Shown here: piece by piece, positions 1-25,051 of the stretch
How positions within the stretch are numbered: position 1 is the first letter of the stretch
How the letters are laid out: each line of letters opens with the position of its first letter
Source of the DNA: Candidatus Iainarchaeum sp.
GTDB taxonomy: Archaea > Iainarchaeota > Iainarchaeia > Iainarchaeales > JAAZKV01
Direction: 5' to 3'
Assembly: GCA_018691995.1 (NCBI GenBank)
Contig: JABHJM010000046.1
Location: forward strand, 1 to 34,708
DNA: 34,708 bases
Translations under genes and position numbers: made by a program
The notes under the pieces: model-generated
What the model saw: the letters and a program-made list of their open reading frames with translations, nothing else
Told to the model about the DNA's origin: nothing
The model's database searches: none

Positions 1-2399
1 GTGCTAGTAATACAAAATGCTCTCTCTCCACTTTCTTCACAAAGTGTTTCCATTCCAACAGTTGTATAAGCTTCTTTTGTTGATGCATAAAGGGATTGTT
101 TTGTAGAATTACTTGCTGTAGTTCCAAGTACGTCGTCTTGAATGTCTCTCTCATAACTTCCGCCTTCAATTCCCCATGCTCGGTAAGCAATTACTAATTG
201 TTCTTCTACTTGTGCATTATCTCGAATTTTTACTGTGGTGCTTGCCATGATTCTTCCTTGAACAAATCCGCCTTGGCTCCAAATTACTTGTGCCCATTTA
301 CTTTCATCTTGATTCAAATGTTTTTCATCAGTAGAATATCCTTTTGGTGGATTGTAAGTTGATCCTTTTAGAATATCGCTTACTCCAGGAGCTATTATTT
401 CTTCAATATAAATTTTGTCAAGTTCTGTTTTTGTATAATCGTCTCGTCCAACACGAACAAACAATCCTAACTCTTCATAGTCTTTTGGTGCAATTAATTC
501 AAAGAGTGCATCATATTCTTGACCTGCCTCAACTTTAAGTACTTGAGAACCATTTTTGTACAATCCTAAATAGTTTACATATAATTCTTCAATAGGGGGT
601 CTTCTAAGAACAACATCAAATGTAATTGTTCCGTCTCCAATAACATCTTTTGGTAGTGTCATGTGACTTTGGTATCCTGCCTTTTCTACAACTGCATAAA
701 TTCTTCTTCCTGCTTTTGTTATGAAACTAATTGCACCGCTTGGGTCTTCAATAATTTTTTTACCACTAATTGGATTGTTTCCATAATTTTCGTAAAATCG
801 TACGTACACTGGTTCTTGATCAGAGAATGTAATAGGATCTCCGTCTTTATCTTTTACAATAACATTAACTGTTCCTAGTGGAATGTCAAGTTTAACTCTA
901 AAAGGTGTTGTTTGATTTAGTGCACTAAATTCTTGAAGTGGGCTCCATCCAGTATAACTTCCTTTGAATGCAAACACTCTATATTTTTCTCCGCTCTTTG
1001 AATAATTTACTGGTTCCCAGTCTGCTTCTCCATTATAATCAGTTAATTTATCAGTGTGTCCAAGTTTGTAAGAATCAGTTTCATCTTCTCCAAAAATAAT
1101 CGCTCGTGCATATTGTACAGGTTTGTTATCTTGATCAATTACTTTTACAAGTAGCTTTCCTCCACAATTTCCAGTGTCAGTTGATAAGTCAAGAGTAACA
1201 CTATCTCCAACACTAACATCTGCTTTTGTTTCACTACAATATCCTTCTTTTGTTGCAATTACTGTGAAAGGTCCGCTAGTAGCAACTTCAAAATCAACTT
1301 CTCCATCTTCATTAGTATCATTACTATGTATTTCTGTTAATCCATCAAGTAAAGTTACTAATACTTCGTCAAGTTCAATACTTCCTTTTTTGGCGGTTAT
1401 TTTTATTTTTCCAATAACACTTTTTGTTAGTTCAAGTACAACAGGATCCATTCCAGTAGTAATCGCTACGTTTGAAATACTTTCAGATTTATAACCATTT
1501 TCAGTAATAGTTGAGAATTTATAATTTCCTTCGCTAAGAGTAAATGTAGCACTTCCGTTTGATGAAACGGAGGTTTCTGTTGGTAAATATAAATTGTTCA
1601 TTCTAAATGCTTTAACACTAACAGCTTCACTAATTAAGTTTCCATTTGATTTTAATTGTACACTCATTGTTACCATTTTTGCAGGAACTTTTTCGATTAA
1701 ATAAAATGTTTCAGATGATTTTGTAACTGTTTTAGTTGCATCTTCATATTTTTCACTAGTTATAGTTACACTTAATACGCCACATGTGCTTGAAACATTA
1801 ATGTTTGCACTTCCATCATAAATAACATCGTCGCTTGGAGGAGTAATTCCAGAACTACATTGATAGCTTAGAGCTAAACGATCATTTATTCTTTGTCCAG
1901 TTTCTGTTAAGAAAAGGGCAGTCATTGAATCAAAACGAATTTGATCTACTGGTAAAGTAATTTCTGCGATTTTTGGACTTTCATCTAAATATATTTTTTT
2001 GATTTTTGTTTTGTCTCCTTTAGTAGCAGTCACATCAATTGCCCCTCCAGCTACAAGAGTAATATCTTCTACTAATCCAAAATCATTTGAATAATAAGTT
2101 TTGTCGATTCCAGCTAGAACAACTTCTGCTCCGCTGATTCCGTTTCCTTCTGTGTCAACAATTGTTAATTGTAATACTGCTTCGCCACCCATTCCAGTTG
2201 CGATTCCAAATATTCCTATTCCAATTAAAAGCAGTAAAATAATTATTATAATTATAAAAAGAGCAAAGCTTGGTACGACTTGATCAATCTTATCAACAAC
2301 TTTGTAAACAGGAACGTGAGCATCTATTTTATCAAGTGCTTCGTACCATTTTTCTTCTGCAGAAAAATAGATATCCTTTACCTTGTCACCAAAACCCAT
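1..2399 (-). CDS. Giant membrane-anchored surface protein, paralogue A (N-terminal ~799 codons only; the ORF runs off the left edge of the window)
   Basis: Not in the supplied ORF track because it has no in-window stop. I hand-translated the minus strand from ATG 2399..2397: MGFGDKVKDIYFSAEEKWYEALDKIDAHVPVYKVVDKIDQVVPSFALFIIIIIILLLLIGIGIF... I met no stop down to position 3 (last residues ...TVGMETLCEESGERAFCITS). A GTGAT SD-like box lies 3 nt upstream of the ATG. It has the same N-terminal motif plus TM helix as the 2398-aa and 2800-aa ORFs. The downstream motifs occur in the same order: LTIVDTEGNGISGAEVVL-type repeats, then FVRVGRDDY, SKWAQV, IAYRAWG, SLYAST. Confidence 0.85.
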   Translation of the reverse strand, partial: MGFGDKVKDIYFSAEEKWYEALDKIDAHVPVYKVVDKIDQVVPSFALFIIIIIILLLLIGIGIFGIATGMGGEAVLQLTIVDTEGNGISGAEVVLAGIDKTYYSNDFGLVEDITLVAGGAIDVTATKGDKTKIKKIYLDESPKIAEITLPVDQIRFDSMTALFLTETGQRINDRLALSYQCSSGITPPSDDVIYDGSANINVSSTCGVLSVTITSEKYEDATKTVTKSSETFYLIEKVPAKMVTMSVQLKSNGNLISEAVSVKAFRMNNLYLPTETSVSSNGSATFTLSEGNYKFSTITENGYKSESISNVAITTGMDPVVLELTKSVIGKIKITAKKGSIELDEVLVTLLDGLTEIHSNDTNEDGEVDFEVATSGPFTVIATKEGYCSETKADVSVGDSVTLDLSTDTGNCGGKLLVKVIDQDNKPVQYARAIIFGEDETDSYKLGHTDKLTDYNGEADWEPVNYSKSGEKYRVFAFKGSYTGWSPLQEFSALNQTTPFRVKLDIPLGTVNVIVKDKDGDPITFSDQEPVYVRFYENYGNNPISGKKIIEDPSGAISFITKAGRRIYAVVEKAGYQSHMTLPKDVIGDGTITFDVVLRRPPIEELYVNYLGLYKNGSQVLKVEAGQEYDALFELIAPKDYEELGLFVRVGRDDYTKTELDKIYIEEIIAPGVSDILKGSTYNPPKGYSTDEKHLNQDESKWAQVIWSQGGFVQGRIMASTTVKIRDNAQVEEQLVIAYRAWGIEGGSYERDIQDDVLGTTASNSTKQSLYASTKEAYTTVGMETLCEESGERAFCITS

Positions 2400-2540
2400 T
2401 TTATCACTAGCTATAGTTAAACTTAACTTCTCTAGTAAGATTTAATGTTTCCGTTATATATATACTTTACTAATGTGTCCTATTTGGTTGGATAATTATT
2501 CACATAGTAAGGGTTATAAACATATTAGGGGATAAATATA

Positions 2541-2837
2541 TTGGTTGTTATGGGGACTACATTATTAATGCAAAAAAAAATTATTCATTATCCAACTTTG
2601 AAAACAATGTTGGCAATTGAGGGGGTAATAAGAAATTCTGAGTTGGCATTGAGTAGAAATAAAATACTTGATTTGCTTGAAAAAAAGGTTATGCGTTCAA
2701 CATTGAATGTTTCTTTAGAGTATATGCAAAATCGAGGGCTTATTCTTGAAACTAAAAAAGGATTTATTTGGACATTCAACGAAAAAATGGAAAAACTTAT
2801 AAGTTCAAAAAAAGCCAATTTTATTGAGATGAAATGA
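2541..2837 (+). CDS. Small winged-helix-like DNA-binding protein, putative antitoxin/regulator of the downstream RelE-like gene
   Basis: 98-aa ORF. The segment LSRNKILDLLEKKVMRSTLNVSLEYMQNRGLILETKKGFIWTF looks like helix-turn-helix plus beta-wing. Its stop overlaps the next start (ATGA at 2834-2837). The start is uncertain: TTG 2541 (GGGGAT box 7 nt upstream), ATG 2550 or ATG 2568. Confidence 0.5.
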   Translation: MVVMGTTLLMQKKIIHYPTLKTMLAIEGVIRNSELALSRNKILDLLEKKVMRSTLNVSLEYMQNRGLILETKKGFIWTFNEKMEKLISSKKANFIEMK

Positions 2838-3202: not shown

Positions 3203-3209
3203 TTTTTTT
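3203..3209 (+). terminator. Oligo-T (T7) tract immediately after the RelE-like stop; archaeal-type intrinsic termination signal between convergent genes
   Basis: taa(3200-3202) is followed directly by ttttttt (3203-3209). The tract overlaps the stop of the convergent minus-strand ORF. Confidence 0.35.
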
Positions 3210-3705
3210 ATATTAATGAGGTAAGTTCTCCAATGAAATCTCCAACAGTTCCATTGTCTTTCATTTGCATTCCCCAGTAGTCGTCCATCCATATTATGTC
3301 TATAATAGTTGGCATAAATAGTTCAATTGCAATTCCAAGAACTAATGCAATTATTAGTAATATTAGAATATTTTTTCCTTCTTTTAAAAAATATTTTTTG
3401 TTTAATAAATCGTCCATTAATGCATTTCCAAATTTTACTCCTGCATATGTTGCAATTGCAATTGGTGCGAGAAAAACAAATATTGCGGCGTTACGTTCAC
3501 TTCCAAGTGCCAAACCAAAGAATACGTGTGGGATGAATGCGAAATATCCATACATTGCTGCTCCAAATAAAAAAAATCCTATAATAGCGAGTGAAATTGG
3601 AACGAATGAGAAAAAATTGTTTAATGGGAAAAAGAATCCCACTCCAAAAGCAATGAAGAGTGCAATTAAGCTTACTAAAAATAATGCGATTGTTTTTACT
3701 TCCAT
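3208..3705 (-). CDS. Multi-pass integral membrane protein (about 5 hydrophobic helices); weak resemblance to SpoIIM/DUF95-type proteins
   Basis: 165 aa made almost entirely of hydrophobic helices (IALFLVSLIALFIAFGVGFFF, ISLAIIGFFLFGAAMYGYFAF, AAIFVFLAPIAIATYAGV, ILILLIIALVLGIAIELF). The ATG is preceded by AGTGATAAA, identical to the leader of paralogue A. The IPHVFFGLALGSE segment only faintly recalls the SpoIIM PHGxxE motif. Confidence 0.7.
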   Translation of the reverse strand: MEVKTIALFLVSLIALFIAFGVGFFFPLNNFFSFVPISLAIIGFFLFGAAMYGYFAFIPHVFFGLALGSERNAAIFVFLAPIAIATYAGVKFGNALMDDLLNKKYFLKEGKNILILLIIALVLGIAIELFMPTIIDIIWMDDYWGMQMKDNGTVGDFIGELTSLI

Positions 3706-3831: not shown

Positions 3832-6800
3832 TTATTTAACAAGTTCTGCTTCGTTCCAGTTAATTGTTTGTCCGTCTGCACTAATACAAGCAACTTTTTG
3901 TTCTTTTGTCCATTCAATTACATTTTTTAGAGTTGGTCCGGTAAGTGTTCCAATGCTTACTTTTGCATGTTTTCCATTATCCATACTTTCTAGTGCACTT
4001 GTTTTATTTGAAAGTATTAATGCTTTTGCACTTACGCTTCCATTTCCTTGATTAAGCATTATTGATAGTGATCCAGCATTTGGATAATAATAAATTCCAT
4101 TGAATGTTTGTTCTTGTAGTGAAACTGGAATAGTTTGTGAGAATGTATTTCCACTTAATTTAGTGTCAGTCATGCTACCATTCCATGTGATTAAATGGTC
4201 TGAAGTTGTAAGTGGTTCTGTTGGATTGTAAACAATTGCTTTTGCTCCGCCACTAGTTGTAACAGTTACTTGCACGGGTGTTCTTTTGTAGAATATTGCT
4301 CCTCCACCAATATCTGCTTCAACTATTACTGCATTAGTTGAGTATTGTAAACTTGTGTCTTCTCCAACTTTAAATCCTTCTTGTAATAGTACATTGTCGC
4401 TTGCTTTGTTTTCTTTTTCATCCATTTCAAGTCTAACAAGTGTTACTTCCATTGTTCTATCTTCTTTACAGTAAGTTGTGTCTAAATTATAATCATATTT
4501 TCCTGGTTCAAGAGTTGTAGTTGCATCGTTTCCTGTAAAGAACTCTGAAGTATGTGTTGCTTTGAATGTTTTGTGGAATTCCTCTGCTGGTTTATCAAAT
4601 GCTTTAATCCCAGTTATGTATACATCTTTGTTTTCTTTTGCAATTTCAAAAATCTTTTCAAGTTTAGGATTTGCATTATAAATTGCTCGAATATCTTTCT
4701 CGTCTGCTTTGTCTTCAATTACTCCACGAACAAGAGCTCCTTTTTCACTTATTGCTTTCATTGTATCCGGAGTAATTGTTTTCTCACTTCCACAAAAAGT
4801 TACAACACAATTTCCGCCAGTATCACATGCATCAGTATCTCCAAGTGCATATATTTCTTTATTCATTTCTTTGTAAGTGCTTAGTGGTAAATAGTAATTA
4901 TCTTCTACTTTACTCATTCCAAGTGCTTTTGCATCATCTTCTTTGAAAGTACTTGTTTCAAGGTTTACTTTATTCACCATGATCATTAATTCATCAGCAC
5001 TTGTTTCTTCTTCTGTCTCAATATCACTTAGTACATCAACCATCCAATTTAATGCAATAATATCGCTAGTTGATGGATCTTCTTTAATTACTTTTACTTC
5101 TCCTTCATTATCGCTTAGTACTTCTTCACTAATTGCATAAGGTAATACAACTAATTCATTATCTGTTCCAGTATAGAATTCAAGTCCTGTATTAGTGCAT
5201 GATTTAATTATGTCAGTATTAGCTTCTTTGTAAAGCTCGCTAATTTTTCTGCTGTTTACTTCTTTCTTTGTATTTCCAGTACAAAATCCAGTCACAGCGC
5301 CACTCTTTGCAACATCAATTGCACTATCAAGTTCAAGGTATTGTCTTTCAAGGTAGTAGTGTAACATATCATTGTTACAGAATTTATCCTCACAATAATC
5401 GCCATACTCTTCTTTGGTAATTTCCTTTGCATTAATCTCATCAATTCTATTAAATCCAAATGTTTCTGCACTTACTTCACATTTTCCAGTGTCAGTTTTA
5501 GCATTATCGATTGCTTTTTGGATTGCTGTTGAACTAAAATCATTACATCCTGCAGCTTTAAGTTCTTTAGTTATGTCATTAACTGCATGCTTATTATCTT
5601 TATACTTTTTAGCTAAATCATCTAATTTTTTCTGACAATCAATTAAAGTTGTATCTCCGACTTTCTTACAATCCTTATCAATATCTTTAATCATATCAGG
5701 AGTAATTTTATCTCTTAGTACAAGTGCAGTTAACATCCAAGTAATTTCTTCATTTTCAAATGTAGCAGCTCTGCTTAATTTTGCTTTAATTGGAATACTA
5801 ATTAATACACATGCATCAGTCATTCCACTACGGTTCAAAGTAACAGCTAAATTAGCTCCTTTTGTTTCTCTTTGATGACTTCCAACTCCAACTGTGCCAA
5901 CTTTAATTCCAACTCCGCCTACACTTGCTGCGTGTGAAATATCGCTTAATTTATCTAAGTATCCACAATTCTTCGATTTAGAACTTGCTCTTTTTGGATC
6001 ATTTTTGTTAAGCATTTGATAATATGAACTTTGTGGATAGAACGAAGTGTTACTTGCTGGACCATATGTTACTGCAGGAGGAGAAGCAATGTAAGTATAA
6101 TTGTCTTCATTATATTCTGTTCCAGGAATAGCTCCGTGTGGATTACTTCCACCTTTACCTTTCCAGTATTCTTTTACATTTAGTGAGTTAGTTCTTTGGT
6201 TTTGACTTACACATTCTCCAGGTGAAGCACTAGTATCTCCCCAGTTTACAAGTGAATCAATACTTTCTCCAATTCTCCACATGTCTTCAATTTCAACAGG
6301 GAATTGTTTACACTGTGTACTTCCATATTGATTTGAGTACTCAACATTTATTCTTCCATAAACTCGTGTTCGTGCATCAGTTTGGGTAGCCCAATCACGG
6401 ATATTTGCAATTGAATTAAACAACCCATATGATTGTGTTCTTGCATCAAATAATTTTCTTTGTGGGATATATTGTGCATTTGGCATTACTTCAAAGATAA
6501 GTGTTTCAGTTGAAGAATCATCACTAACAGTTCTTGAATAAACCCGTGTTCCAGAAACCATTGAACAAGAATTTCCACTACAACTTTGTCCGCCTAAATA
6601 ACTTTGATAATTATTACCAAATCCTCCAGTAGTAGGATATCCTGTTTGGTATAATCCTTGGTATTGTTGTCCTGTTTGGAAATATGGTGCGCTTTGTGTT
6701 GGATTTACTCTACTTGTTTGTGCGTCACATTGTACTGTAACAGCATTAGCTCCTCTTGTTAATTGTAATCCAGAAGAATAACAATAGTTGTATACTTTGT

Positions 6801-12554: not shown

Positions 12555-12568
12555 GAAGAAAATATAGT

Positions 12569-12583
12569 TTCTTTCTTAATAAA
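12569..12583 (-). promoter_or_regulatory. TATA-like promoter motif TTTATTAAGAAAGAA upstream of the pilin-like gene
   Basis: It matches the TTTATTAACAAAGAA motif found at 21756-21770 and 21065-21079 at 14 of 15 positions. The TATA centre is about 25 nt upstream of ATG 12554, which implies a leaderless transcript. Confidence 0.4.
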
Positions 12584-18500: not shown

Positions 18501-21001
18501 ATAAAAGATAAATTATTGTCAGTAGCAACACTTACTTGTAAGTAATCAGTTTCTTTTGCACTAAATTCTGCTTCAAGTGCATAAATTTTTCCTTGTAGTG
18601 CTTCAAAGCCAGCAGTGTCATAAAATACATCTTCAGCATCAACAAAGTTCATTGCAATACAAACATTGTCATTACATTCTGGTAGTGATTCGTATAAATT
18701 AAATTCTTCTGTTAGTGTACTAGCATATAATGCACTTTTAGTTTCACTATTCAATCCAGTTCCAAGATCCACATCTTCTGGAGTTCTATGATAATCATCT
18801 TGTAAGTTTGACCATGCACGATAATGGATTGGAATTTTCCCAGCAGTAAAATCGGCAACTCGGACTTTTACTTTTACAATATAAGTTCCTTTTGGATTAG
18901 AAATGGTTCCTTCAACCCATTTGCTTTCTTCTCCTTCGCTTGAAGTATTACTTCGATCAACTACTTCGTTTTCACTATAAGAGTATGAATAAACTTTTTC
19001 TGAATTACTCATGTCAAGTTCATAGAGAGCAATGTTTCCAGAATCTACAAAGTTAGTAGTATCATTCCCTACACGAAAGTGTACTCCGCCATTGTCTGCT
19101 GCAAGTGGAAATTTAACACTAAATCTTGCCCAAAAGAATGCTCCAGGAGTAAGTCCTTGTACATTATCTCCATTCTCATTTTCGATTCCTTCGTATTCAA
19201 TTGTTGGTGAAAGATCACTATCTTTGTTATACACAACAACTTCAATTACATCTCTTCCTTTTACATAAACATTTTCAGTAAAAGTATTTCCATCGCATAA
19301 ACTAATTGCTAGTTCAACAACTTCTTTATCTCTTGAGTTAAAAATTATTGTTGAATCAACAATGTTTCCGTCAAAGATAATTTCTCCACTAAGTTCACTA
19401 ATAACTCCTTTTCCACATATGCTTCCTCCAAGAGGGTCAATTAAATTTAGTTCAATAACATTTGGTTTTTTGCTCATTGCAATGTAAACTTTATTATCAA
19501 TTACAACATCTCCAATTTCAACAAGTTTATTTCCTTTGTGTGTTTTTGTTTCTGCCGTTATTTCATAAGTCTTATTTTTTTCTACAACAAAATTTGCATA
19601 TCCTGCAATACTTGTTTCAAGTTCATCAATTCCATATGGGAGTTTGTTTGCATCAGTTATTTCTTCTACTTTTATTTTTGCTCCAGAAATAGGTTTGCTA
19701 TACTTATCAAGAGTATAAAGATCAATTCTTGTTGAATTAACACTATTTATTTTTTCAAGAACAATACTTGCAATTTCTGTTGAACCAACACTAACCTTAA
19801 TTCTTCCTGGTAAGTGTTCATCATGTACTGCAGTAATATAAATATCGTCATTTGGATCCAGTCCACTAAATTCAACCCCATTTATTTTTGAAATCTTTCT
19901 CTCAATTTGATTTCCGTTTAAATAAAATAATTGAACAACTGCATTGTCAAGTCCAAGTCCCAAATCATTTAATACATTAACAAGTAAGCTTTCTCCACCT
20001 TTTGCAATTATAACGTCAATTTTTTCTTCAGCTCTTCGCAGGGTAAAACTAATGTCTTCTGAATCAGAATCATATGTGAGATATCCTTCTGCACTAGCAA
20101 CAATTCTAAGTGGGATTCCTGTTTGGATTTGTGTGGCAATTGCTCCTTGTTCAGTTACTCCATTTGTTATTTCAATTCCTGTTTGTTTGTTATATACAGA
20201 AATTGTTGCCCCGTCGATTGAAGTGGTGCCGTCACTTAGGGTAATTATTACATTTGCTTTTCCAACAAAACCATTTCCGGAAGGAGTAAGGGTTAGGTCT
20301 TCACGAACTCCTGCAATAAAAGTAATTGTTTGTTTTAATTCTGTGTACCCTTCGGCATTTACAGTAATTAGAATAGGAGTGTCTTCAGGTACTCCTCCAA
20401 TTCGAAAGATTCCATTTTGGTCAACGTTCATTGTCCATTCAAGGTCTTCCCAGTTAAGTGTTACTGTTGCATTTGTTACTTTTGAAGAAGTCTCAGAATC
20501 AGCCAGTCCTACAATTGCATTTATTCCAACAAAATCTTTTGTAAAAAGAAGTGCTCCTTTTGCATCACTTTCTCCGACCAAAATTTCTTCTTCTGCATCA
20601 TGATAACCTGTTTTTGATGCTTGTAATAATAATTTTGTTCCTGGGGCTTGTGGAACAAGTTGTATTACTTGTCCATCTCCAACAGTTTTATTTGTAATTA
20701 ACATTTCTCCATTTTGTGATTGTACTGAAAGTGAAACTCCATTCAAACTTTTTCCACCAGTGTCACGAAGAGTTAGTGTAAGTTCATCAACAGTTGTAAT
20801 TGGACTTACAAAAACCAAACTTAAAAGTAAGAGTAACATTACAACAATTGCGATTGTTACAATGAATGATGGGATTCCTTTTTCTTCAAAAAAATCTGAG
20901 TAAGTATAAACAGGGATTCCCTTATGGTCAAGTGCATCAAGAACAGTAAAATATTTGTCTTCAAGATGTGTATAAAAATTTGCTAATTTTTCACTTATCA
21001 A
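12599..21001 (-). CDS. Giant membrane-anchored surface protein, paralogue C (2800 aa, TTG start), with a ~740-aa C-terminal extension relative to paralogue B
   Basis: Uninterrupted 8.4-kb ORF. The start is TTG at 21001..20999, directly preceded by an in-frame TGA and a GTGAT box 4 nt upstream. The TTG start is supported by alignment of MISEKLANFYTHLEDKYF...GIPSF plus TM (IVTIAIVVMLLLLLSLVFV) with the N-termini of paralogues A and B. CarboxypepD_reg-like repeats are present (TLTLRDTGGKSLNGVSLSVQ, ANVIITLSDGTTSIDGATISV, LLVNVLNDLGLGLDNAVVQL, FTVKVFDEGLSGVENAFVKI). Family motifs are VHFRVGNDT, SKWVEG, IHYRAWSN, ALYAST. The body ends at FTISWNNS, which aligns by eye with QTINWNEAE at the C-terminus of B. 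Confidence 0.9.
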   Translation of the reverse strand: MISEKLANFYTHLEDKYFTVLDALDHKGIPVYTYSDFFEEKGIPSFIVTIAIVVMLLLLLSLVFVSPITTVDELTLTLRDTGGKSLNGVSLSVQSQNGEMLITNKTVGDGQVIQLVPQAPGTKLLLQASKTGYHDAEEEILVGESDAKGALLFTKDFVGINAIVGLADSETSSKVTNATVTLNWEDLEWTMNVDQNGIFRIGGVPEDTPILITVNAEGYTELKQTITFIAGVREDLTLTPSGNGFVGKANVIITLSDGTTSIDGATISVYNKQTGIEITNGVTEQGAIATQIQTGIPLRIVASAEGYLTYDSDSEDISFTLRRAEEKIDVIIAKGGESLLVNVLNDLGLGLDNAVVQLFYLNGNQIERKISKINGVEFSGLDPNDDIYITAVHDEHLPGRIKVSVGSTEIASIVLEKINSVNSTRIDLYTLDKYSKPISGAKIKVEEITDANKLPYGIDELETSIAGYANFVVEKNKTYEITAETKTHKGNKLVEIGDVVIDNKVYIAMSKKPNVIELNLIDPLGGSICGKGVISELSGEIIFDGNIVDSTIIFNSRDKEVVELAISLCDGNTFTENVYVKGRDVIEVVVYNKDSDLSPTIEYEGIENENGDNVQGLTPGAFFWARFSVKFPLAADNGGVHFRVGNDTTNFVDSGNIALYELDMSNSEKVYSYSYSENEVVDRSNTSSEGEESKWVEGTISNPKGTYIVKVKVRVADFTAGKIPIHYRAWSNLQDDYHRTPEDVDLGTGLNSETKSALYASTLTEEFNLYESLPECNDNVCIAMNFVDAEDVFYDTAGFEALQGKIYALEAEFSAKETDYLQVSVATDNNLSFIGTQNGTFNFVENLLTQGTSESTIAVSVTKDSMQKVRFYFIGEQPGGVNINFIASGNAYIQKDLSFTVVTEKKLLVELSDTLVTLGKNFTVKVFDEGLSGVENAFVKIINKQGEVVKSVSGNGEDGTGRGGSYRIENNLDAGLYTVEVSAPRFSTSTTTLLVSIAKVLDFKEEINVKMMVGQKTDIVTKPLENLSELSINQISYEIGDTDNFEISAVVPPILGAGQKNNVQINIEYVGSSETIDEIVEITIKGYVEGKFLVEATSMMNIVYNRQLDSDCLKLEPSNLTINLIGNAGSSDSDVVEATNNCDQAIMLTKRVKEKSNRSYIAVDSDDISLQPGQTKNITIRAQNLVERGMRLNENYNFEVIYDSNYLTKRLNVKVNLINPSFALSCPGQVTLWMTQNSVGQKATAAQPLYITNNSQFPIQNIGFNIQGTANGAKLSVEPSGAVNLEAGQTITPTKVLFAQGNSKLSEPIQQTVVVTGRMGNLNNRSGQRDLYGQYNNYYNGSGTYNSLTNYRPSVTNYTTSNNETLCTINATIYHSGFDCLKVNIVDDPTFNLSIEGLSKSRKISIQNNCAEPVRIISATSQAQGLLLGVQPTIVPPGPMVHTQLSVGSINPNMNLKGYPIFIQGITDISQTPIKSEAINIDVTSGDHSGKYSKATKGLTVKECVDGGEDTEITIDVPKLSSTDCSNGYCDAMQATEYIAKKLDTAIRKAESYAYSKQSQSETFGCETQGYCTFAQVGMKQESFELYLQNDVVSVGALREALGELTSNQTSGIRGGLSGGDYRIEVSDVSSETIQFLAASGYTIPTVFIDNDLQGCGYYKVRIDGAFPVAGNFLSFQTPVIIIRAMDLAEQGGLTTPECVDDIVNLANFTPIDKGFTATDNKGTWLTTINAETNLKSIGEGLAERHFKDKTRVTTTPQGNKIKISEGALTNALAEVCILGGEKKTIEVKVNSQVSGMSDTEKEAFHKSLSKMISDAMSGSFGNNCLVKSGEGHNCVRLSEASDVGRLKLDIPDKVMLFAKGGGCVYGDISSPIPESITFDIAGRDNEIKDFEGIKRITIEDVTNPNKTVTEETSEDETKTDEETDPSVDSKSRKYYYEIIFEGGDVTKPTSYPLQLTRNANSKDKRFMRDLKICAYPSLEKVEDSGESTYTTANGATFVVTAMNKSAGEARGTEDADGLIKINSGTLHPDDLVEILMQKKDKISKKGEKNPYYFTISWNNSINPIPSLKEYYKGMADSGLREEDVAEITKEGTKSNKATFNYEKEAKKKAITSYLGVCSATAAACNLTTGWGAVIAPVTDCVIPAAFMFKDDFASNYPAFKKTFAFLSEIPFIGIPFQTSQAKPYEPKSYAPALVAGGSTGGVARLYGAGSRLWGWNAGTASYLAGETDTIVKGKLITQLRSSFPNASDDAIEKVASDVATKFKDGVAKSGKDAYSSGLKRKNFKLLRDFGVVNEKDATKAIQKGINDVELKKVLLENSSASKSSTKITNMELLIGSEKGESISDIAGIKTRATTILDDPEVAFNTLGSTTQQQINSAKIISDKVSAQIDATPSLAGTGDMSISEAKSVVDDVLSTSGLSPTMEDEVRKEIYSQFKVKTDDFADAAKASRRFSSAADYTAAKDAATRIDVSELKSTIRSRANIAARRNAGEAIRSIDSSIDDIYEGVTKQMSKAAKEADVKLPTKGSTKFKNLIKSSRLWKELGRGVVCGVVSNYAGMYAYNRSARESTEELQKKITVLGDDPLLKGATYKMVLSEEDSKERIIPSYNMVDTDEEKAEMIKALSGKEKNLNGTLLVWDKSLHSKMPEERKLRLYLINIEPSQLRDVLSQNNDFFDDSDEIEDIIKMVQAPTTQELIYTYSHKESSRRISIDNAVYAREHWIGSLIVVLSDDYKESEKEKELLGKSTFLKNKITQLTQEVKGEANVSLTKEIAKKIFNTDPKKAEFFFRLVSAWEPFAESG

Positions 21002-21098
21002 TCAAATCACGCCCCCCCGGTTCACTGTGTATAATTATTATATGTAGTTAGTAAATTTAAGCGTTTCTTTGTTAATAAATGTTTTGTAATTTCGAAAT
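21002..21098 (-). promoter_or_regulatory. Leader/promoter region of giant gene C, containing a G7 homopolymer (C7 on + strand, 21012-21018), an SD box and two TATA-like boxes
   Basis: The minus-sense sequence reads ...ACATTTATTAACAAAGAAACGC...CATATAATAATTATACACAGTGAACCGGGGGGGCGTGATTTGA-TTG. The TTTATTAACAAAGAA motif sits at 21079..21065 and GTGAT at 21010..21006. Confidence 0.45.
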
Positions 21099-21743
21099 TC
21101 ATTTCCTAGCCCAAATGAACCACAATACATACACAACGATTATGTATACAAATAAAACTAGTCTAAACAAGGTATCGTGCGCAATTTCAAACACTGCTTC
21201 ATTTTGACTCATAATGATGTTTAGTGTAACAAAAATTCTAAGGAGATTAAATACATAACCAAGTATTACTGCAACAATTGCCCCAATGACTTTTTTTCGC
21301 CACCCTATTCCAAATGAAGCAAGTATTGCACTTACAAGAATAATAATTTCAAGTGCTCCGCTACAAAGCCAAGAAATAAAGATAGTTTGAGAAGTTTGAT
21401 TAATTTCAAATGAATAAGCTGTTTCAAAGTTTTCAAGTTCTACATTTCCATTACTCACTGTTTCTATTCCTTGTGCACTAAGTAGGCCTTGTGCACTTCT
21501 TCCAGTACTCTCTTGAATAGAAGTTGAAAAGGGTATAGTAATTCCACTAAGTATTAAATAAAATATTAAAAATCCTAAAACAAACCAAACAAATTGTTTC
21601 TTTTGATCTTTCACAATTTTCTTTTCTTGTTCAACAAAATAATTTTTTATCTTATTAGTAGTTTCACAAAACATACATTTTTCGTTTTCTTTACAAAATA
21701 AAATTGGCTTTCCTTTTTTAGGGGTAGATTTCTTTTTTACCAT
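21099..21743 (-). CDS. Minimal exosortase/archaeosortase-family protein (putative Cys transpeptidase)
   Basis: 214 aa. The C-terminal ~100 aa show the family-defining order of catalytic residues within TM helices: ISWLCSGALEIIILVSAILA (Cys in a CSG motif), about 40 aa, NLLRIFVTL (NxxR), about 20 aa, AHDTLFRLVLF (His). The N-terminus is basic with a Cys cluster (CKENEKCMFC), followed by one TM helix and a ~60-aa loop. Confidence 0.65.
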   Translation of the reverse strand: MVKKKSTPKKGKPILFCKENEKCMFCETTNKIKNYFVEQEKKIVKDQKKQFVWFVLGFLIFYLILSGITIPFSTSIQESTGRSAQGLLSAQGIETVSNGNVELENFETAYSFEINQTSQTIFISWLCSGALEIIILVSAILASFGIGWRKKVIGAIVAVILGYVFNLLRIFVTLNIIMSQNEAVFEIAHDTLFRLVLFVYIIVVYVLWFIWARK

Positions 21744-21755
21744 TGAGAAAATATG

Positions 21756-21770
21756 TTCTTTGTTAATAAA
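21756..21770 (-). promoter_or_regulatory. TATA-like promoter motif TTTATTAACAAAGAA upstream of the archaeosortase-like gene
   Basis: An identical 15-mer recurs at 21065-21079 upstream of giant gene C. The TATA centre is about 24 nt upstream of ATG 21743, so the transcript is probably leaderless. Confidence 0.4.
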
Positions 21771-21781: not shown

Positions 21782-22030
21782 TTACTGTTCGTCTTTATGA
21801 TAAATTTCTATAAAAATTATTTTATTATCCTTTTCAATATAAATGTAGGCTAATCGAAAGGGTGAAATATAAAGTTCTCTTGTTCCTTTTCTACCATATC
21901 TCATGGGTTTTCCAAGGGTTGGATTCTCAATTACTTTTTCAATTTGTTTTTTTATTTTTAGTTTAGTTTCAGAATCTTTCATTTTTTTTATTTGTTTTAA
22001 AAATTGTTTTCTATATCCATAAATTACCAT
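21782..22030 (-). CDS. RelE/ParE-family toxin
   Basis: 82 aa. ...IEKVIENPTLGKPMRYGRKGTRELYISPFRLAYIYIEKDNKIIFIEIYHKDE matches the canonical nP..Gk.l....g.relri.pyRl.Y.i......i.i..i.H pattern. It overlaps the upstream antitoxin gene by 7 nt. Confidence 0.75.
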   Translation of the reverse strand: MVIYGYRKQFLKQIKKMKDSETKLKIKKQIEKVIENPTLGKPMRYGRKGTRELYISPFRLAYIYIEKDNKIIFIEIYHKDEQ

Positions 22031-22290
22031 TTTTTTAGCTCCGCAAGAAAAGCCTCCTTTGTCATGCTAGTATATTTTCCTTTATCATAGTCTTCCCAAG
22101 CTTTGTCTATTCGTTTAATATATTCCAGATCTTCTCCTAGATTGGAAGCTAATGATTTTACATCTTTCATGATTATGTCTTTTTTATTTCGAACAACAAG
22201 AAATTCATCGCCTTTTTTCATGCCTTTTCGCATATGGCTGGGAATTACAATTTGTCCTTTTGTACTCATTTTTGTTATTGCATATTGCAT
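22024..22290 (-). CDS. AbrB/SpoVT-fold antitoxin (MazE-like), cognate of the RelE/ParE toxin
   Basis: MSTKGQIVIPSHMRKGMKKGDEFLV is the swapped-hairpin AbrB/SpoVT signature. The track ORF begins at TTG 22344, but ATG 22290 is preceded by a perfect AGGTGAT box 3 nt upstream. I therefore call the 88-aa product starting MQYAITK. Confidence 0.7.
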   Translation of the reverse strand: MQYAITKMSTKGQIVIPSHMRKGMKKGDEFLVVRNKKDIIMKDVKSLASNLGEDLEYIKRIDKAWEDYDKGKYTSMTKEAFLAELKKW

Positions 22291-22465
22291 CAAATCACCT
22301 AATGTAAGATGTGTCTTACTTTTTATAATACTTTGTTTTGACAAAATTTAACTTTTAAAAAAATATAATTTTTTTTATTTTTAAATCTAATTTAAAGTTC
22401 GTCGATTGCTAAAATTTTATTTAAGAAAGTGGTTAAAAAAAGAAGGGGGTCTAATATTGATTAAG

Positions 22466-22669
22466 ATGGATTATAAAGTAGCTATTTACGAAGATGAGGA
22501 TGGAGTCTTTATTGCAGAATGTTTAGAACTGCCTGGTTGTATTTCTGATGGTAATACAAAAGAAGAAGCTGTTGAAAATATTAAGGAAGCAATAGATGCC
22601 TACTCTGAGAGTATTCTAAAAGAAAAAACTGAAAAATTAAAAGGGAAAATAGTAAATGTTACTGTTTGA
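22466..22669 (+). CDS. hicB: HicB-like (UPF0150) antitoxin-fold protein with no HicA partner visible
   Basis: MDYKVAIYEDEDGVFIAECLELPGCISDGNTKEEAVENIKEAIDAY is the classic HicB N-terminal domain pattern (y.v.i..d.dG.f.a...elpGc.s.G.T.eEA..n..eAi). The track start TTG 22406 adds 20 non-conserved residues, so I prefer ATG 22466. Confidence 0.7.
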   Translation: MDYKVAIYEDEDGVFIAECLELPGCISDGNTKEEAVENIKEAIDAYSESILKEKTEKLKGKIVNVTV

Positions 22670-22744
22670 TAAATTTTCTTTTCAATCACATTTTTATATT
22701 ACAAAAGTATTATCCTAGTAGTAATTTTAGTGTTGTGAGTAAAA

Positions 22745-25051
22745 ATGAAGATTGGTGGAATGCAAGTTGGAGAGTATGTTGTAAAAAGTGTTGGTGGAAA
22801 GAGAGCACTTATTTTTGATTGTAAACATTGTCCATATAGGGCAAGCATTGCAGAAGATCATCATTGTCGTTTTCACGTTTTAAAAATTTTAGGACAACTT
22901 GAAGCAGATACAGTTGTTTTTGCAGAAGTATATGAGAGAGTATATGCAGAAGCACAAACAAAAATGCTAATGGAAGTAGCAAACCTTGCACAAAAGTTTG
23001 TTGTTCAAAGTATTTGGAGTTATAATCATTTAGGACGACCAAAAAAAGAATGCGAACCTTTCTTTCCAGAAAGACACAGAATAATGGTAAAAATTGCACG
23101 GGACCTAATTACATTCGATCCACTCTTAGCGTACCTAACTCTAATGGAGGAACTTAAGAAACAAGAAGTAAAAGTAAAACAAGGAAGTGCTGAATATATT
23201 GATTGTGCAGAACCCTATGTTGCAACTCTTGTTCAAATGAAAAATTCATTTGATATTTTAACACTTACAATAAAAGCAAGAAAATTATTAACAGAATTAA
23301 CCGAAATTCCAAATACAAAAGTAATGTACAAATCAATTTTTGAAGCAGAAATAAAACCTTCATTTATTGGATCAAAATTATCTTTTGAGGGGATGGAAAA
23401 TTTAGAATTAATGGATGAATATAATGTTCGTGAATCAACAGTACAAGTTTTTTCAGATCCAGATAGGGTAGAAAAAATTTATCAAATTAATCCACCTGAA
23501 TATTCACTAGCGCCAGACCAATATTTTATTCTTAGTAAAACTCGTGAAATAGTTGCATCGTATCGTCCAGGAAAAACATCACTTAGTACAGTTGCAACTT
23601 CAAGAAAATATTTTGAACGTTTATATGAAGCAACAATAAAAGAAGTTGCACAATTTCATAAAGTAAGATTAAGTCCGGGGGAAATGTCTTCACTAAGTAA
23701 AGTAGTAGCTCGTTACACAGTAGGTTATGGTATCCTTGAAGTACTTCTTAATGATAGACGTGTAACAGACATTTATCTTGATGCTCCAATTGGAGGAAAA
23801 CCAATTTATGTTGTGCATAGTGATTATGGGCAATGTCAAACAAATGTTACATTCACTGAAAACGAATCAAATTCATTAATTTCAAAACTTCGTGCAATGA
23901 GTGCTCGTCCATTTGATGAAGCACACCCAGTGCTTGATTTTGATTTACAAGATCTTGAAACACGTGTTGCAGTAATTGGGCCACCCCTCTCACCAAGCGG
24001 AGCAGCTTATGCATTTCGTTTACACAAATTAACTCCATGGACACTTGAACAATTTATTGATGTAGATTATCTAAACCCATTAGCGGCCGGAATGATTTCG
24101 TTCTTTATTGATATGCAAAGTACAACTTTAATAGCAGGTTCACGTGGTAGTGGAAAAACATCTTTACTTGGAGCAACTATTCAAGAAATTCCACAAAATT
24201 CTCGTATAATAATTCAAGAAGACACAATGGAACTTCCAGTTGATTATTTGAAAAATATTGGTTTTAATATTCAAAGACTCAAAACAAAAAGTGCAATTAG
24301 TGTAAGTAAAACAGAAACTGAGGTAGCACCAGAAGAAGCACTAAGAACATCACTACGTCTTGGTGACTCTGCACTAATTTTAGGAGAAGTAAGAAGTACT
24401 GAAGCAAAAGTACTTTATGAAGCAATGAGAGTAGGTGCAGCAGGAAATGTTGTAATGGGAACAATCCACGCAGATAGTGCTTATAGTGTATGGGACAGAG
24501 TTGTAAATGATCTTGGAGTTCCAACAACTTCGTTTAAAGCAACTGATATTGTAATAGTTGCTCGTCCAATTCGTTTCAAGGGGTCACTTACAAGACACCG
24601 TAGAGTTGTAGAAATAACAGAGGTAAAAAAGCATTGGGATAAGGATCCAGAAAGAGAAGGTGGCCTATTAAAGTTAATGTCTTATGAAGCAAAGACTGAT
24701 AATTTAGAATTACAAGAAGACAATTTAAAAGAAAGTGATTTGTTAAAAAAGATTCAAAAAACTTCAGGGTTAAGTGTTAATGATATTTGGTCAGAAATAA
24801 GACTTCGTGGAAATGCAAAACTATTTTTAGTAGAACAAAAAAGTGAACTTGATCTTCCAGAACTTTTAGAAGCAATTAACACTTCTAGTGGAAATAATAA
24901 ATTACTTTTAATGAAAGAAAAAATGATTGAAGAAGAAGGTAGTGTTAATTATGATCAACTTTTAGGCCAGTGGAAAAACTGGGTAACAACAAAACTTATT
25001 CCTCGAGTAAAAAGAGCTAGTGTAGCTAATAAGAAGAAAAAGAAAGAATGA
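22745..25051 (+). CDS. Type II/IV secretion-system ATPase family protein (archaeal FlaI/PilB/GspE/VirB11-like), unusually long
   Basis: 768 aa. Motifs seen: Walker A GSRGSGKTS (24137-24163), Asp box IIIQEDTMELP, Walker B-like LILGEVRSTEA, His box MGTIHAD. Upstream lies the N2-type domain VTDIYLDAPIGGKPIYVVHSDYG...VAVIGPPLSPSGAAYAFR. An extra ~330-aa N-terminal region carries a CKHCPY...HHCRFH cluster. A ~130-aa C-terminal extension ends in KKKKKE. A GTGAG SD-like box lies 4 nt upstream of the ATG. Confidence 0.85.
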   Translation: MKIGGMQVGEYVVKSVGGKRALIFDCKHCPYRASIAEDHHCRFHVLKILGQLEADTVVFAEVYERVYAEAQTKMLMEVANLAQKFVVQSIWSYNHLGRPKKECEPFFPERHRIMVKIARDLITFDPLLAYLTLMEELKKQEVKVKQGSAEYIDCAEPYVATLVQMKNSFDILTLTIKARKLLTELTEIPNTKVMYKSIFEAEIKPSFIGSKLSFEGMENLELMDEYNVRESTVQVFSDPDRVEKIYQINPPEYSLAPDQYFILSKTREIVASYRPGKTSLSTVATSRKYFERLYEATIKEVAQFHKVRLSPGEMSSLSKVVARYTVGYGILEVLLNDRRVTDIYLDAPIGGKPIYVVHSDYGQCQTNVTFTENESNSLISKLRAMSARPFDEAHPVLDFDLQDLETRVAVIGPPLSPSGAAYAFRLHKLTPWTLEQFIDVDYLNPLAAGMISFFIDMQSTTLIAGSRGSGKTSLLGATIQEIPQNSRIIIQEDTMELPVDYLKNIGFNIQRLKTKSAISVSKTETEVAPEEALRTSLRLGDSALILGEVRSTEAKVLYEAMRVGAAGNVVMGTIHADSAYSVWDRVVNDLGVPTTSFKATDIVIVARPIRFKGSLTRHRRVVEITEVKKHWDKDPEREGGLLKLMSYEAKTDNLELQEDNLKESDLLKKIQKTSGLSVNDIWSEIRLRGNAKLFLVEQKSELDLPELLEAINTSSGNNKLLLMKEKMIEEEGSVNYDQLLGQWKNWVTTKLIPRVKRASVANKKKKKE

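What the first reader, a model, noticed from the sequence alone, without database searches (positions are those of the whole stretch)
1..25051. Three collinear giant surface-protein paralogues clustered with a pilin-like protein, a minimal archaeosortase-like protein and a long FlaI/PilB-type ATPase: candidate undescribed cell-surface or host-contact system
Seen directly:
- Three minus-strand ORFs (at least 799 codons, 2398 aa, 2800 aa) take up 17,999 of 34,708 nt.
- They share the same architecture: a conserved cytoplasmic N-terminal motif, a single TM helix, CarboxypepD_reg/Ig-like repeats, then an ordered series of family motifs (V-H/F-V/F-R-V/T-G, KW, YRAW, LYAS/LYLG, Cys pairs, and Q/G/Y/N-rich linkers in the two full-length members).
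- Between and beside them on the same strand are a class III signal-peptide protein (11145-12554), an exosortase/archaeosortase-family protein (21099-21743) and a multi-pass membrane protein (3208-3705).
- A T2SSE-family ATPase lies divergently at 22745-25051.
- Four of the minus-strand genes carry related promoter motifs.

Inference: the pilin-type signal and ATPase suggest type IV filament machinery, while the sortase-family enzyme suggests covalent surface anchoring. I am not aware of a described system that pairs either with N-terminally anchored giant proteins. In a small-genome episymbiotic archaeon such a locus would be a prime candidate for host attachment.
Basis: partly seen in the sequence, partly recalled or inferred. 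Interest (0 to 1): 0.85.

Follow-up and report, generated by a model that had tools for sequence, protein, structure and literature searches.

The report
Conserved giant surface-protein cluster, DPANN archaea
A tiny-genome archaeon (Iainarchaeota, DPANN) keeps three or four giant cell-surface proteins carrying a previously undescribed N-terminal tag next to a pilus motor ATPase, a sortase-like membrane enzyme and a large pilin-like protein, and this conserved arrangement is a strong candidate for an undescribed attachment apparatus.

Summary

The order ATPase | sortase-like > giant 1 > pilin-like > giant 2 > 4-TM protein > giant 3 (> giant 4) recurs in Iainarchaeota MAGs and metagenomes:
- ATPase beside the sortase-like gene in 22 of 24 evaluable species genomes.
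- A leader-bearing giant downstream in 22 of 25.
- The sortase-like gene upstream of giant 1 in 22 of 25 metagenome loci.
- A distant locus keeps the trio (ATPase 48%, sortase-like 28% identity).

In about nine relatives the ATPase heads an operon of a polytopic membrane protein plus five or six class III signal-peptide proteins, so it is a type IV pilus motor.

The giants share a roughly 45-residue two-helix leader ending in [IV]PSF just before the single TM helix. It is the best conserved part of giant 1, is absent from Pfam and NCBIfam, and marks 915 protein clusters, always at the N-terminus.

No giant has a C-terminal sorting signal, so the sortase-like enzyme's substrate is unknown.

Verdict: a real, apparently undescribed pilus-linked surface module. 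Its mechanism is inferred, and coupling of the parts rests on synteny alone.

The parts
3..2399 (-). Giant paralogue G3 (N-terminal 799 aa; truncated by the window edge; orthologues are 2721-2757 aa)
   Evidence: Open frame to the window start with the conserved leader MGFGDKVKDIYFSAEEKWY...VVPSF plus one TM. CarboxypepD_reg at 1.2e-11. Aligns to G2 over aa 4-796. Full-length orthologues sit at the same position in L001 and L002.
3208..3705 (-). 165-aa membrane protein with four hydrophobic segments; conserved between G2 and G3
   Evidence: TM segments. 165-169-aa orthologues lie at the same position in L001 and L002. No Pfam or NCBIfam family.
3832..11028 (-). Giant paralogue G2 (2398 aa): leader, single TM, tandem Ig-like/prealbumin-like domains, then an unassigned Cys-containing region
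   Evidence: Three CarboxypepD_reg stretches (2.9e-28) plus Big_1 and SpaA hits. Orthologues of 2339-2478 aa at 41-67% identity. AF2 model of aa 1-850 has pLDDT 79, with helices at 2-23, 27-36 and 41-61, then all-beta. Foldseek matches TIE protein, Gram-positive pilins, SdrD and alpha-2-macroglobulins.
11145..12554 (-). 469-aa pilin-like protein (class III-type signal, long N-terminal helix, novel disulfide-rich globular domain)
   Evidence: Orthologues keep a basic leader followed by [KR]GFN[ML]F[ST]A[IL]VA, and have 10 invariant Cys. AF2 pLDDT 85.7, helix 7-74. No significant PDB fold match. Follows G1 wherever the flank allows.
12599..21001 (-). Giant paralogue G1 (2800 aa, TTG start)
   Evidence: CarboxypepD_reg at 2.3e-14. 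Orthologues of 2752-2984 aa lie directly downstream of the sortase-like gene. The leader (aa 1-50) is 79% conserved against ~45% for the ectodomain and ~25% for the C-terminal 600 aa.
21099..21743 (-). 214-aa minimal exosortase/archaeosortase-family protein
   Evidence: TIGR04178 42.8 bits (cutoff 23) and PF09721 28.2 bits (cutoff 25.7). Four TM segments. C127, R169 and H189 are invariant in 24 homologues. All named Xrt/Art subfamily models score below cutoff.
21782..22669 (.). Inserted toxin-antitoxin genes: ParE 21782-22030 (-), AbrB/MazE-like 22024-22344 (-), HicB-like 22406-22669 (+). Not part of the system.
   Evidence: Pfam hits. Absent from most orthologous loci, where the ATPase-to-sortase gap is 107-800 nt.
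22745..25051 (+). 768-aa FlaI/GspE/CpaF-type ATPase with a conserved ~290-aa N-terminal extension (CxxC...HCxxH)
   Evidence: T2SSE at 8.6e-19. FlaI model 144.9 bits, below its cutoff of 550. PDB matches afGspE 2oap (2.4e-29), CpaF and FlaI over aa 297-690 only. Walker A GSRGSGKT at residue 465, with invariant Cys and His in the extension. 61-88% identical across relatives.
12567..12583 (-). Promoter-like motif TTTATTAAGAAAGAAAC upstream of the 469-aa gene
   Evidence: 1 mismatch.
21063..21079 (-). Promoter-like motif TTTATTAACAAAGAAAC upstream of G1
   Evidence: exact.
21754..21770 (-). Promoter-like motif TTTATTAACAAAGAACA upstream of the sortase-like gene
   Evidence: 2 mismatches.

Best explanation
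This is a lineage-specific cell-surface module of Iainarchaeota (DPANN) that is genetically coupled to a type IV pilus machine.

Shown:
- A pilus-type ATPase is kept back-to-back with an operon for a minimal exosortase-family enzyme, three or four giant paralogues, a large pilin-like protein and a small 4-TM protein.
- Each giant has a conserved ~45-residue two-helix leader, one TM helix and a long array of Ig-like domains of the kind found in bacterial adhesins and pilins.

Inferred:
- The giants are type II (N-in, C-out) anchored stalks or adhesins.
- Their conserved leader stays in the cytoplasm and serves as the docking or recognition element for conserved cytoplasmic machinery. The best candidate is the ATPase's unique N-terminal extension or its membrane platform.
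- The 469-aa protein is processed as a class III substrate and built into or onto the filament as a large minor or tip pilin.
- The exosortase-like enzyme, whose Cys, Arg and His face outward, matures a cluster protein at the outer membrane face by cleavage, shedding or lipid transfer. It does not use a canonical C-terminal signal.
- The assembly mediates contact with surfaces or partner cells.
For: - Conserved order across about 70 loci. Linkage counts are 22/24, 22/25 and 22/25.
- Linkage survives inversion of the ATPase (L022, L048), insertions of 1-9 kb (L028, L036, L039, L041), and different genes on the far side of the ATPase.
- The same trio occurs in a distant locus, L085.
- In relatives the ATPase is co-operonic with a 9-TM protein and class III signal-peptide proteins.
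- The leader is the most conserved part of G1. It is found only at N-termini, in 915 representative clusters, most of them giants or contig-end fragments.
- The ectodomain fold matches surface adhesins and pilins.
- Cys counts are even (6, 30, 26 in the giants, 12 in the pilin-like protein) and the giants are strongly acidic.
- The 469-aa protein has pilin-like N-terminal features.
- The three genes at the head of the operon share a promoter-like motif.
Against: - No biochemical or expression data exist. Functional coupling rests on synteny within one phylum plus one distant locus.
- No PilC/FlaJ gene and no prepilin peptidase lie in the window. The 809-aa candidate platform in relatives matches no T2SSF model.
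- No cluster protein carries the C-terminal tripartite signal that defines exosortase substrates.
- Leader-bearing giants occur without sortase-like or ATPase neighbours in L083, L084 and L086.
- The globular domain of the 469-aa protein has no pilin fold match.
- The topology of the giants is inferred. The leader is net negative and flanking charges are uninformative.
Confidence: 0.5

Rival explanations
1. The parts are neighbours but not one machine. The 214-aa protein is the lineage's general, reduced archaeosortase for ordinary C-terminally anchored proteins encoded elsewhere. The ATPase is the housekeeping pilus motor. The giants are independent adhesins or envelope proteins. The conserved order reflects shared descent and perhaps co-regulation of envelope genes.
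For: - The giants lack any C-terminal signal.
- Proteins with a Sec signal, a C-terminal TM and a basic tail exist in these genomes. Two of them lie directly beside the sortase-like gene, in L060 and L079.
- The ATPase is far more conserved (61-88%) than its neighbours, as expected for a core function.
- Leader giants also occur elsewhere in genomes.
Against: - Adjacency persists through inversion, insertions and rearranged outer flanks, and is seen in a distant lineage at 28-48% identity.
- The sortase-like gene is immediately upstream of giant 1 on the same strand, usually with a gap of 113-540 nt.
- A shared promoter-like motif lies upstream of the first three genes.
Confidence: 0.3
2. A new sorting pathway using an N-terminal signal. 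The leader-[IV]PSF-TM element is the cognate recognition signal of this exosortase subfamily, read in concert with the pilus ATPase, which would extract or orient the helix.
For: - A proline-aromatic motif sits immediately N-terminal to a TM helix, as in PGF/PEP/PEF signals.
- The leader is under the strongest constraint in G1.
- The enzyme and leader giants are linked in two distant lineages.
- Archaeosortase A is reported to process a tripartite signal that is not at the C-terminus (PMC6098224, citing Abdul Halim 2017).
Against: - With the ectodomain outside, the motif is cytoplasmic, while the enzyme's invariant Cys, Arg and His are predicted at the outer face.
- No basic tail follows the TM helix.
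- There is no direct evidence of cleavage.
Confidence: 0.1
3. The giants are giant modular type IV pilins. A long class III leader is cut at KG|[IV]PSF by a prepilin peptidase, and the helix is polymerised into the filament by the ATPase.
For: - G1 and G2 have [KR]G directly before the hydrophobic helix.
- Archaeal pilins are a helix plus an Ig-like domain (own knowledge).
- The ATPase and a bona fide class III protein are neighbours.
Against: - G3 and G4 have V, I or F instead of Gly at position -1.
- Only 64 of 139 family representatives have Gly there.
- The leader is ~45 residues and net acidic, unlike class III leaders.
- The TM helix is only ~21 residues and runs straight into a beta domain.
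Confidence: 0.07
4. The giant ORFs are assembly chimeras, collapsed repeats or pseudogenes.
For: None found. One other assembly (L003) diverges in the last 278 nt of its own contig.
Against: - Identity to independent assemblies is 99.9-99.99%.
- A 44-kb JGI contig carries the same 2800-aa and 469-aa genes.
- Full-length orthologues have matching length and order.
- BLASTP finds no internal self-repeats.
Confidence: 0.01

Closest known systems
Archaeal type IV pili / type IV filament systems (Aap, Ups, Epd pili; Makarova, Koonin & Albers 2016, PMC4858521)
   Same: A FlaI/GspE/CpaF-type ATPase. Class III signal-peptide proteins (the 469-aa protein here, five or six small ones in relatives). In relatives, a polytopic membrane protein follows the ATPase. 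Large accessory surface proteins are known in some archaeal pilus loci.
   Different: The ATPase has a ~290-aa conserved N-terminal extension. No recognisable PilC/TadC/FlaJ or A24 peptidase is present in the window. The constant partner of the ATPase is an exosortase-family gene plus leader-bearing giants, which that survey does not mention.
Archaeosortase/exosortase sorting systems (ArtA/PGF-CTERM, EpsH/PEP-CTERM; minimal forms XrtF, XrtG, XrtH, XrtX, ArtD)
   Same: The signature domain is present, with an invariant Cys and Arg (plus His) at the outer ends of TM helices. The protein is small, like the minimal subfamilies. The gene sits beside large surface proteins.
   Different: It belongs to no named subfamily. 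Neighbouring proteins have an N-terminal anchor and no C-terminal motif-TM-basic tail. It is linked to a pilus ATPase.
Giant surface proteins of other ultrasmall symbionts (nanohaloarchaeal 'SPEARE' proteins, PMC10266531)
   Same: Very large, Ig-rich, membrane-bound ectodomains in DPANN genomes, encoded beside a secretion-type ATPase, and proposed to mediate host contact.
   Different: According to that paper, those proteins have a Sec signal peptide, an internal VirB4/TraG-like ATPase domain and a neighbouring VirB4 ATPase. Here there is a distinct N-terminal leader, no ATPase domain in the giants, and a FlaI/GspE-type ATPase.
Gram-positive sortase-assembled pili and MSCRAMM/TIE adhesins
   Same: The ectodomain fold is a tandem array of CnaB/prealbumin/Ig-like domains. 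Top Foldseek hits are the B. anthracis TIE protein, BcpA, SpaA/SpaD, RrgB, PitA and SdrD.
   Different: The similarity is in fold only (8-15% identity). Those proteins use LPXTG C-terminal signals and unrelated sortases.
Modular type IV pilins (e.g. Streptococcus sanguinis PilB/PilC; own knowledge)
   Same: A pilin-type N-terminus is fused to a large functional module. This is the best analogy for the 469-aa protein.
   Different: The globular domain here has no known fold match. The giants themselves fail the class III site test.

Membership tests
Exosortase/archaeosortase superfamily | Match to the signature domain (TIGR04178 / PF09721) above the curated cutoff | tested here: met
   TIGR04178 42.8 bits against 23; PF09721 28.2 bits against 25.7.
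Exosortase/archaeosortase superfamily | Conserved catalytic-type Cys and Arg (plus His) near the outer ends of TM helices | tested here: met
   C127, R169 and H189 (also N166, D190) are invariant in 24 homologues. Equivalence to the ArtA catalytic residues was not aligned directly.
Exosortase/archaeosortase superfamily | [quoted passage not shown] | tested here: not met
   No C-terminal TM in any giant or in the 469-aa protein, in the window or in 16 orthologues. Two C-terminally anchored proteins lie beside the enzyme gene in L060 and L079, with no shared motif. A genome-wide test was not possible.
Named subfamilies ArtA-ArtG / XrtA-XrtX | Score above the subfamily cutoff | tested here: not met
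   Best scores are XrtX 40.3 against 170, XrtF 36.1 against 90, XrtH 32.9 against 86, ArtD 26.3 against 125.
Type IV pilus / type IV filament system | PilB/FlaI/GspE-family hexameric ATPase with an intact Walker A motif | tested here: met
   T2SSE at 8.6e-19. PDB matches afGspE, CpaF and FlaI. GSRGSGKT at residue 465.
Type IV pilus / type IV filament system | Polytopic platform protein (PilC/TadC/FlaJ, PF00482) next to the ATPase | tested here: inconclusive
   None in the window. In about nine relatives a 777-817-aa, 9-TM protein follows the ATPase, but it matches no Pfam, NCBIfam or PDB sequence.
Type IV pilus / type IV filament system | Substrates with a class III signal peptide (basic leader, [KR]G, hydrophobic helix) | tested here: met
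   The 469-aa protein and its orthologues carry it, and the model has a helix at 7-74. Small proteins with RGQ|AFSVFELMIAAI-type N-termini lie in relatives' ATPase operons.
Type IV pilus / type IV filament system | Prepilin peptidase (A24: PibD/FlaK/EppA) | not testable with these tools
   None among the window proteins. The rest of the genome is not available.
Archaellum motor FlaI (NF058587 equivalog) | Score above the equivalog cutoff | tested here: not met
   144.9 bits against 550.
Class III (prepilin) substrates, applied to the giants | Gly or Ala at position -1 and a short basic leader | tested here: not met
   G3 and G4 lack Gly. Only 64 of 139 representatives have it. The leader is ~45 aa and net -3 to -4.
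Nanohaloarchaeal SPEARE-type giant proteins | Sec signal plus an internal VirB4/TraG-like ATPase domain (PMC10266531) | tested here: not met
   No such domain in G1, G2 or G3. The N-terminus is the leader plus a signal anchor.

The most novel reading that the evidence does not exclude
The exosortase-family enzyme and the pilus ATPase together form a new protein-sorting pathway. It would recognise an N-terminal signal (two-helix leader, [IV]PSF, TM helix) instead of a C-terminal one, and would use it to display, release or polymerise giant adhesins on ultrasmall archaea. The leader, found in 915 protein clusters, would then be the first N-terminal sorting tag for this enzyme superfamily.
Probability: 0.15. 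Interest if true: 0.88.

Novelty: new variant of a known kind. Interest (0 to 1): 0.68.

Why it matters
How DPANN archaea hold on to partner cells or surfaces is largely unknown, and Iainarchaeota have no cultured representative.

This locus takes up more than half of a 35-kb window in a roughly 1-Mb genome and is kept intact across the phylum. It gives three concrete handles:
- A sequence tag (the leader) that finds the whole family of giant proteins in metagenomes.
- A pilus ATPase subfamily with a distinctive N-terminal extension.
- An exosortase subfamily with no canonical substrate.

If the parts work together, this would extend both exosortase biology (substrates without a C-terminal signal) and type IV filament biology (coupling to giant membrane-anchored adhesins). 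It would also provide targets for cryo-ET, proteomics and enrichment studies of DPANN attachment.

Tried and rejected
- Sequence searches of G1 and G2 against PDB chains found nothing.
- Foldseek of the 469-aa model found no significant match.
- The 809-aa putative platform protein matched no Pfam, NCBIfam or PDB sequence. Its identity as PilC/FlaJ therefore remains positional only.
- The 165-aa membrane protein matched nothing even at E = 10. A resemblance to SpoIIM that I suspected was not borne out (E = 9.3 in one orthologue).
- A profile of the sortase-like family found no solved structure.
- A mixed G1-G4 leader alignment was too divergent for the metagenome scan, so a G1-only alignment was used. 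The reverse linkage test therefore covers G1 only.
- N-glycosylation sequon density does not separate the giants from cytoplasmic proteins and was dropped as topology evidence.
- The promoter-like motif is not conserved in distant loci, so it supports co-regulation only in this organism.
- A moderately hydrophobic, Cys-containing stretch in G1 (aa ~2110-2150) was examined as a possible second membrane segment. It does not reach TM level.
- Viral or mobile-element origin was rejected: no relatives of the leader or the sortase-like protein in IMG/VR.
- The secretion system predicted by Makarova 2015 (arCOG01314/arCOG02884) is a different gene set.
Full report
**1. What is in the window**

The window is AT-rich: 30-34% GC over the cluster, falling to 25-27% beyond 25 kb. 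It has no tRNA genes.

- G3', 3-2399 (-), 799 codons, open at the window edge.
- A 165-aa protein with four hydrophobic segments, 3208-3705 (-).
- G2, 3832-11028 (-), 2398 aa.
- A 469-aa protein, 11145-12554 (-).
- G1, 12599-21001 (-), 2800 aa, TTG start.
- A 214-aa protein, 21099-21743 (-).
- A 768-aa ATPase, 22745-25051 (+).

Toxin-antitoxin genes (ParE, AbrB-like, HicB-like) lie between the 214-aa gene and the ATPase.

**2. Identity of the parts**

*The giants.*
- All three carry CarboxypepD_reg domains. G2 also hits Big_1, SpaA, SdrD_B and macroglobulin-type Ig models.
- Each has exactly one strong hydrophobic helix, at aa ~44-65, and none at the C-terminus.
- BLASTP relates the three only over the first ~760 residues, at 23-27% identity.
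- So the paralogy is real, but demonstrable collinearity is limited to the first third.

*The 214-aa protein.*
- It passes the exosortase/archaeosortase signature model (TIGR04178, 42.8 bits against 23) and PF09721. It reaches no named Xrt or Art subfamily cutoff.
- In 24 homologues C127, R169 and H189 are invariant.
- With the K-rich N-terminus inside, these residues fall at the outer ends of TM helices.

*The ATPase.*
- It has T2SSE and an intact Walker A motif.
- It matches A. fulgidus GspE, CpaF and FlaI over aa 297-690 only.
- Residues 1-296 match nothing but are conserved, with invariant CxxC...HCxxH.

*The 469-aa protein.*
- It has no family match.
- Its orthologues show a basic leader followed by [KR]G-FN[ML]F[ST]A[IL]VA, and ten invariant cysteines.
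- The AF2 model (pLDDT 85.7) has a 68-residue N-terminal helix followed by an alpha/beta domain. That domain has no significant PDB neighbour.
- Its N-terminus resembles those of small pilin-like proteins in relatives.

**3. The giant ORFs are real**

- Contigs from an NCBI MAG and two ENA assemblies match the window at 99.9-99.99%.
- A 44-kb JGI contig carries identical 2800-aa and 469-aa genes.
- G2 has full-length orthologues of 2339-2478 aa at 41-67% identity.
- G1 has orthologues of 2752-2984 aa.

**4. Conservation of the neighbourhood**

Look-ups from G2 orthologues give this order in two unrelated assemblies: giant (~2830 aa) > ~480 aa > giant (~2400 aa) > 165-169 aa > giant (~2740 aa) > toxin-antitoxin pair > a fourth giant.

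Look-ups from sortase-like homologues at 46-47% identity give: ATPase (766-767 aa, divergent) | sortase-like > giant (2793-2980 aa) > ~480 aa.

A scan of species-representative genomes with the sortase-like alignment returned 30 loci. Those whose record names a taxon are labelled Iainarchaeum, Forterrea or Diapherotrites; the rest are labelled only 'archaeon'. The lineage is Nanobdellati/DPANN.
- The ATPase is adjacent in 22 of 24 loci with at least 1.5 kb of upstream sequence.
- A leader-bearing giant follows in 22 of 25 loci with at least 1 kb downstream.

The reverse test scanned metagenomes with the G1 leader and gave 38 loci. The sortase-like gene lies upstream in 22 of 25 loci with at least 1.5 kb of flank. 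The 469-aa homologue follows G1 wherever the flank reaches.

The linkage survives several kinds of rearrangement:
- Inversion of the ATPase (L022, L048).
- Insertions of 1-9 kb between the sortase-like gene and G1 (L028, L036, L039, L041).
- Two different arrangements on the far side of the ATPase.

A much more distant locus (L085, GC 42%) again has the ATPase (48% identity, including the N-terminal extension) back-to-back with a 169-aa exosortase-like gene (28% identity). Two secreted proteins and a 2160-aa leader-bearing giant follow.

**5. Link to type IV pili**

In about nine of the genome loci the ATPase is followed on its own strand by a 777-817-aa, 9-TM protein. After that come five or six proteins of 170-260 aa whose N-termini are classic class III signals, for example RGQ|AFSVFELMIAAI and RGQ|VSAPFELMVAVI.

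This is the standard layout of an archaeal type IV pilus operon, so the ATPase is best read as a pilus assembly motor.

The large membrane protein is not recognisable as PilC/TadC/FlaJ by sequence. In the window, and in about half of the relatives, these genes are not adjacent to the ATPase.

**6. The N-terminal leader**

All four paralogue groups share this pattern immediately before the TM helix:

x3-K-phi-x3-Y-x3-E-[DE]-K-[YW]-[FY]-x2-phi-D-x-phi-D-x3-phi-P-phi-Y-x2-phi-D-x-phi-[DE]-x2-(G)-[IV]-P-S-F

- AF2 models it as two helices, 2-23 and 27-36, before the TM helix at 41-61. The chain is all-beta after that.
- In G1 it is the most conserved segment: 79% against ~45% for the ectodomain and ~25% for the C-terminal 600 aa.
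- It is net acidic and absent from Pfam and NCBIfam.
- A three-sequence profile found 915 cluster representatives at E <= 0.001, and 275 at <= 1e-10, among 1.84 billion proteins. Every listed match was at the N-terminus. The proteins are either short contig-end fragments or 1500-3075 aa long.
- Some members stand alone: L083 lies next to housekeeping genes, L084 next to a helicase. Others occur in tandem without a visible sortase-like gene, as in L086.

**7. What the giants look like**

The model of G2 aa 66-850 is a string of beta-sandwich domains. Its best structural neighbours are the B. anthracis TIE protein, sortase-assembled pilins (BcpA, SpaA, SpaD, RrgB, PitA, GBS52), SdrD, alpha-2-macroglobulins and SlaB.

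Together with even cysteine counts, conserved Cys pairs and strong acidity, this points to an extracellular stalk or adhesin held by an N-terminal signal anchor.

**8. Mechanism**

The cluster-level conclusion is well supported: this is a conserved surface module genetically tied to a pilus motor and an exosortase-family enzyme. The mechanism is inferred.

I favour the following model:
- N-in/C-out giants whose cytoplasmic leader docks to conserved cytoplasmic machinery. The ATPase's unique extension is the obvious candidate.
- The 469-aa protein acts as a large minor or tip pilin.
- The enzyme acts at the outer membrane face.

Three observations limit this model:
- No cluster protein has the C-terminal tripartite signal that defines exosortase substrates.
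- The [IV]PSF motif sits on the opposite side of the membrane from the enzyme's conserved residues.
- Leader giants exist outside the cluster.

The main rival is that the enzyme is simply this lineage's reduced general archaeosortase and the order is inherited. Two C-terminally anchored proteins lying directly beside the enzyme gene in L060 and L079 give that rival some support.

The 'giant pilin' reading fails for G3 and G4 and for more than half of the family, because they lack Gly at position -1.

**9. Comparison with what is known**

- The survey of archaeal type IV pilus loci does not mention sortase-family genes or DPANN.
- The predicted secretion system of Makarova 2015 is a different gene set.
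- A review of archaeal surface biogenesis describes archaeosortases only with C-terminal, or exceptionally internal, tripartite signals.
- Nanohaloarchaeal giant proteins differ in having a Sec signal and a VirB4-like domain.
- Five literature searches found no description of this cluster or of the leader. The library searched is incomplete.

**10. Verdict**

A conserved, apparently undescribed, pilus-linked surface system is supported. Covalent anchoring of the giants and host attachment are not shown.
- Novelty: a new variant of known kinds of system (type IV filament plus exosortase plus giant adhesins), with a new N-terminal signature domain.
- Interest: 0.68.

Noticed in passing
window 21782-22669 and 2541-3202; L001 25870-26404; L002 26450-27023: Toxin-antitoxin modules are repeatedly embedded in the cluster. 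In the window these are ParE plus AbrB-like and HicB-like genes between the sortase-like gene and the ATPase, plus two unassigned + strand ORFs in the 808-nt gap between the 165-aa gene and G3. In relatives, RHH+PemK and MazE+PIN pairs lie between G3 and a fourth giant.
   Followed up: partly
window 25411-34700: GC drops to 25-27%. The genes here look like a glycan-modification island: a 1292-aa protein with methyltransferase and weak NodZ-like hits, a weak WcbI-like 403-aa protein, and several ORFs with no match. This flank is not syntenic in relatives.
   Followed up: partly
window 28131-28203 and 28929-29001: A 73-nt direct repeat (96% identity) lies inside the 1292-aa gene. One ENA contig (L004) appears to join across it, which suggests either a deletion variant or an assembly collapse in that other assembly.
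   Followed up: no
L012 454-7053; L030 1-6609 (and L020, L023, L029, L039, L040, L042, L044): In these relatives a conserved 777-817-aa, 9-TM protein with no family match follows the ATPase, then five or six small class III signal-peptide proteins. The large protein may be a highly divergent pilus platform protein.
   Followed up: partly
L085 1-12503: A distant genome (GC 42%) has the same ATPase subfamily (48% identity) back-to-back with a 169-aa exosortase-like gene. Two Sec-signal proteins and a 2160-aa leader-bearing giant follow.
   Followed up: partly
L060 3-2417; L079 4012-7407; L084 6387-8078; L037 3-1766; L010 3-3494: Large proteins with a C-terminal TM helix plus a basic tail occur in these genomes. 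Two lie directly beside the sortase-like gene. They are possible canonical substrates, but the five tails share no clear motif.
   Followed up: partly
L039 11385-19574; L036 4124-8779; L041 2470-5745; L038 6007-9408: Other very large N-terminally anchored proteins without the leader are inserted after the sortase-like gene in some genomes: 2729 aa, 1551 and 1091 aa (one family), and 1134 aa.
   Followed up: no
window 12599-14700 (G1 aa ~2100-2800): The C-terminal ~700 aa of G1 are K/E/A/S-rich and poorly conserved (19-38% identity). They follow a moderately hydrophobic stretch with three conserved cysteines. This region may be a variable distal tip.
   Followed up: partly
L086 1-14923: Three leader-bearing giants lie in tandem, with a Cas12f/TnpB-like gene inserted between the second and third.
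   Followed up: no
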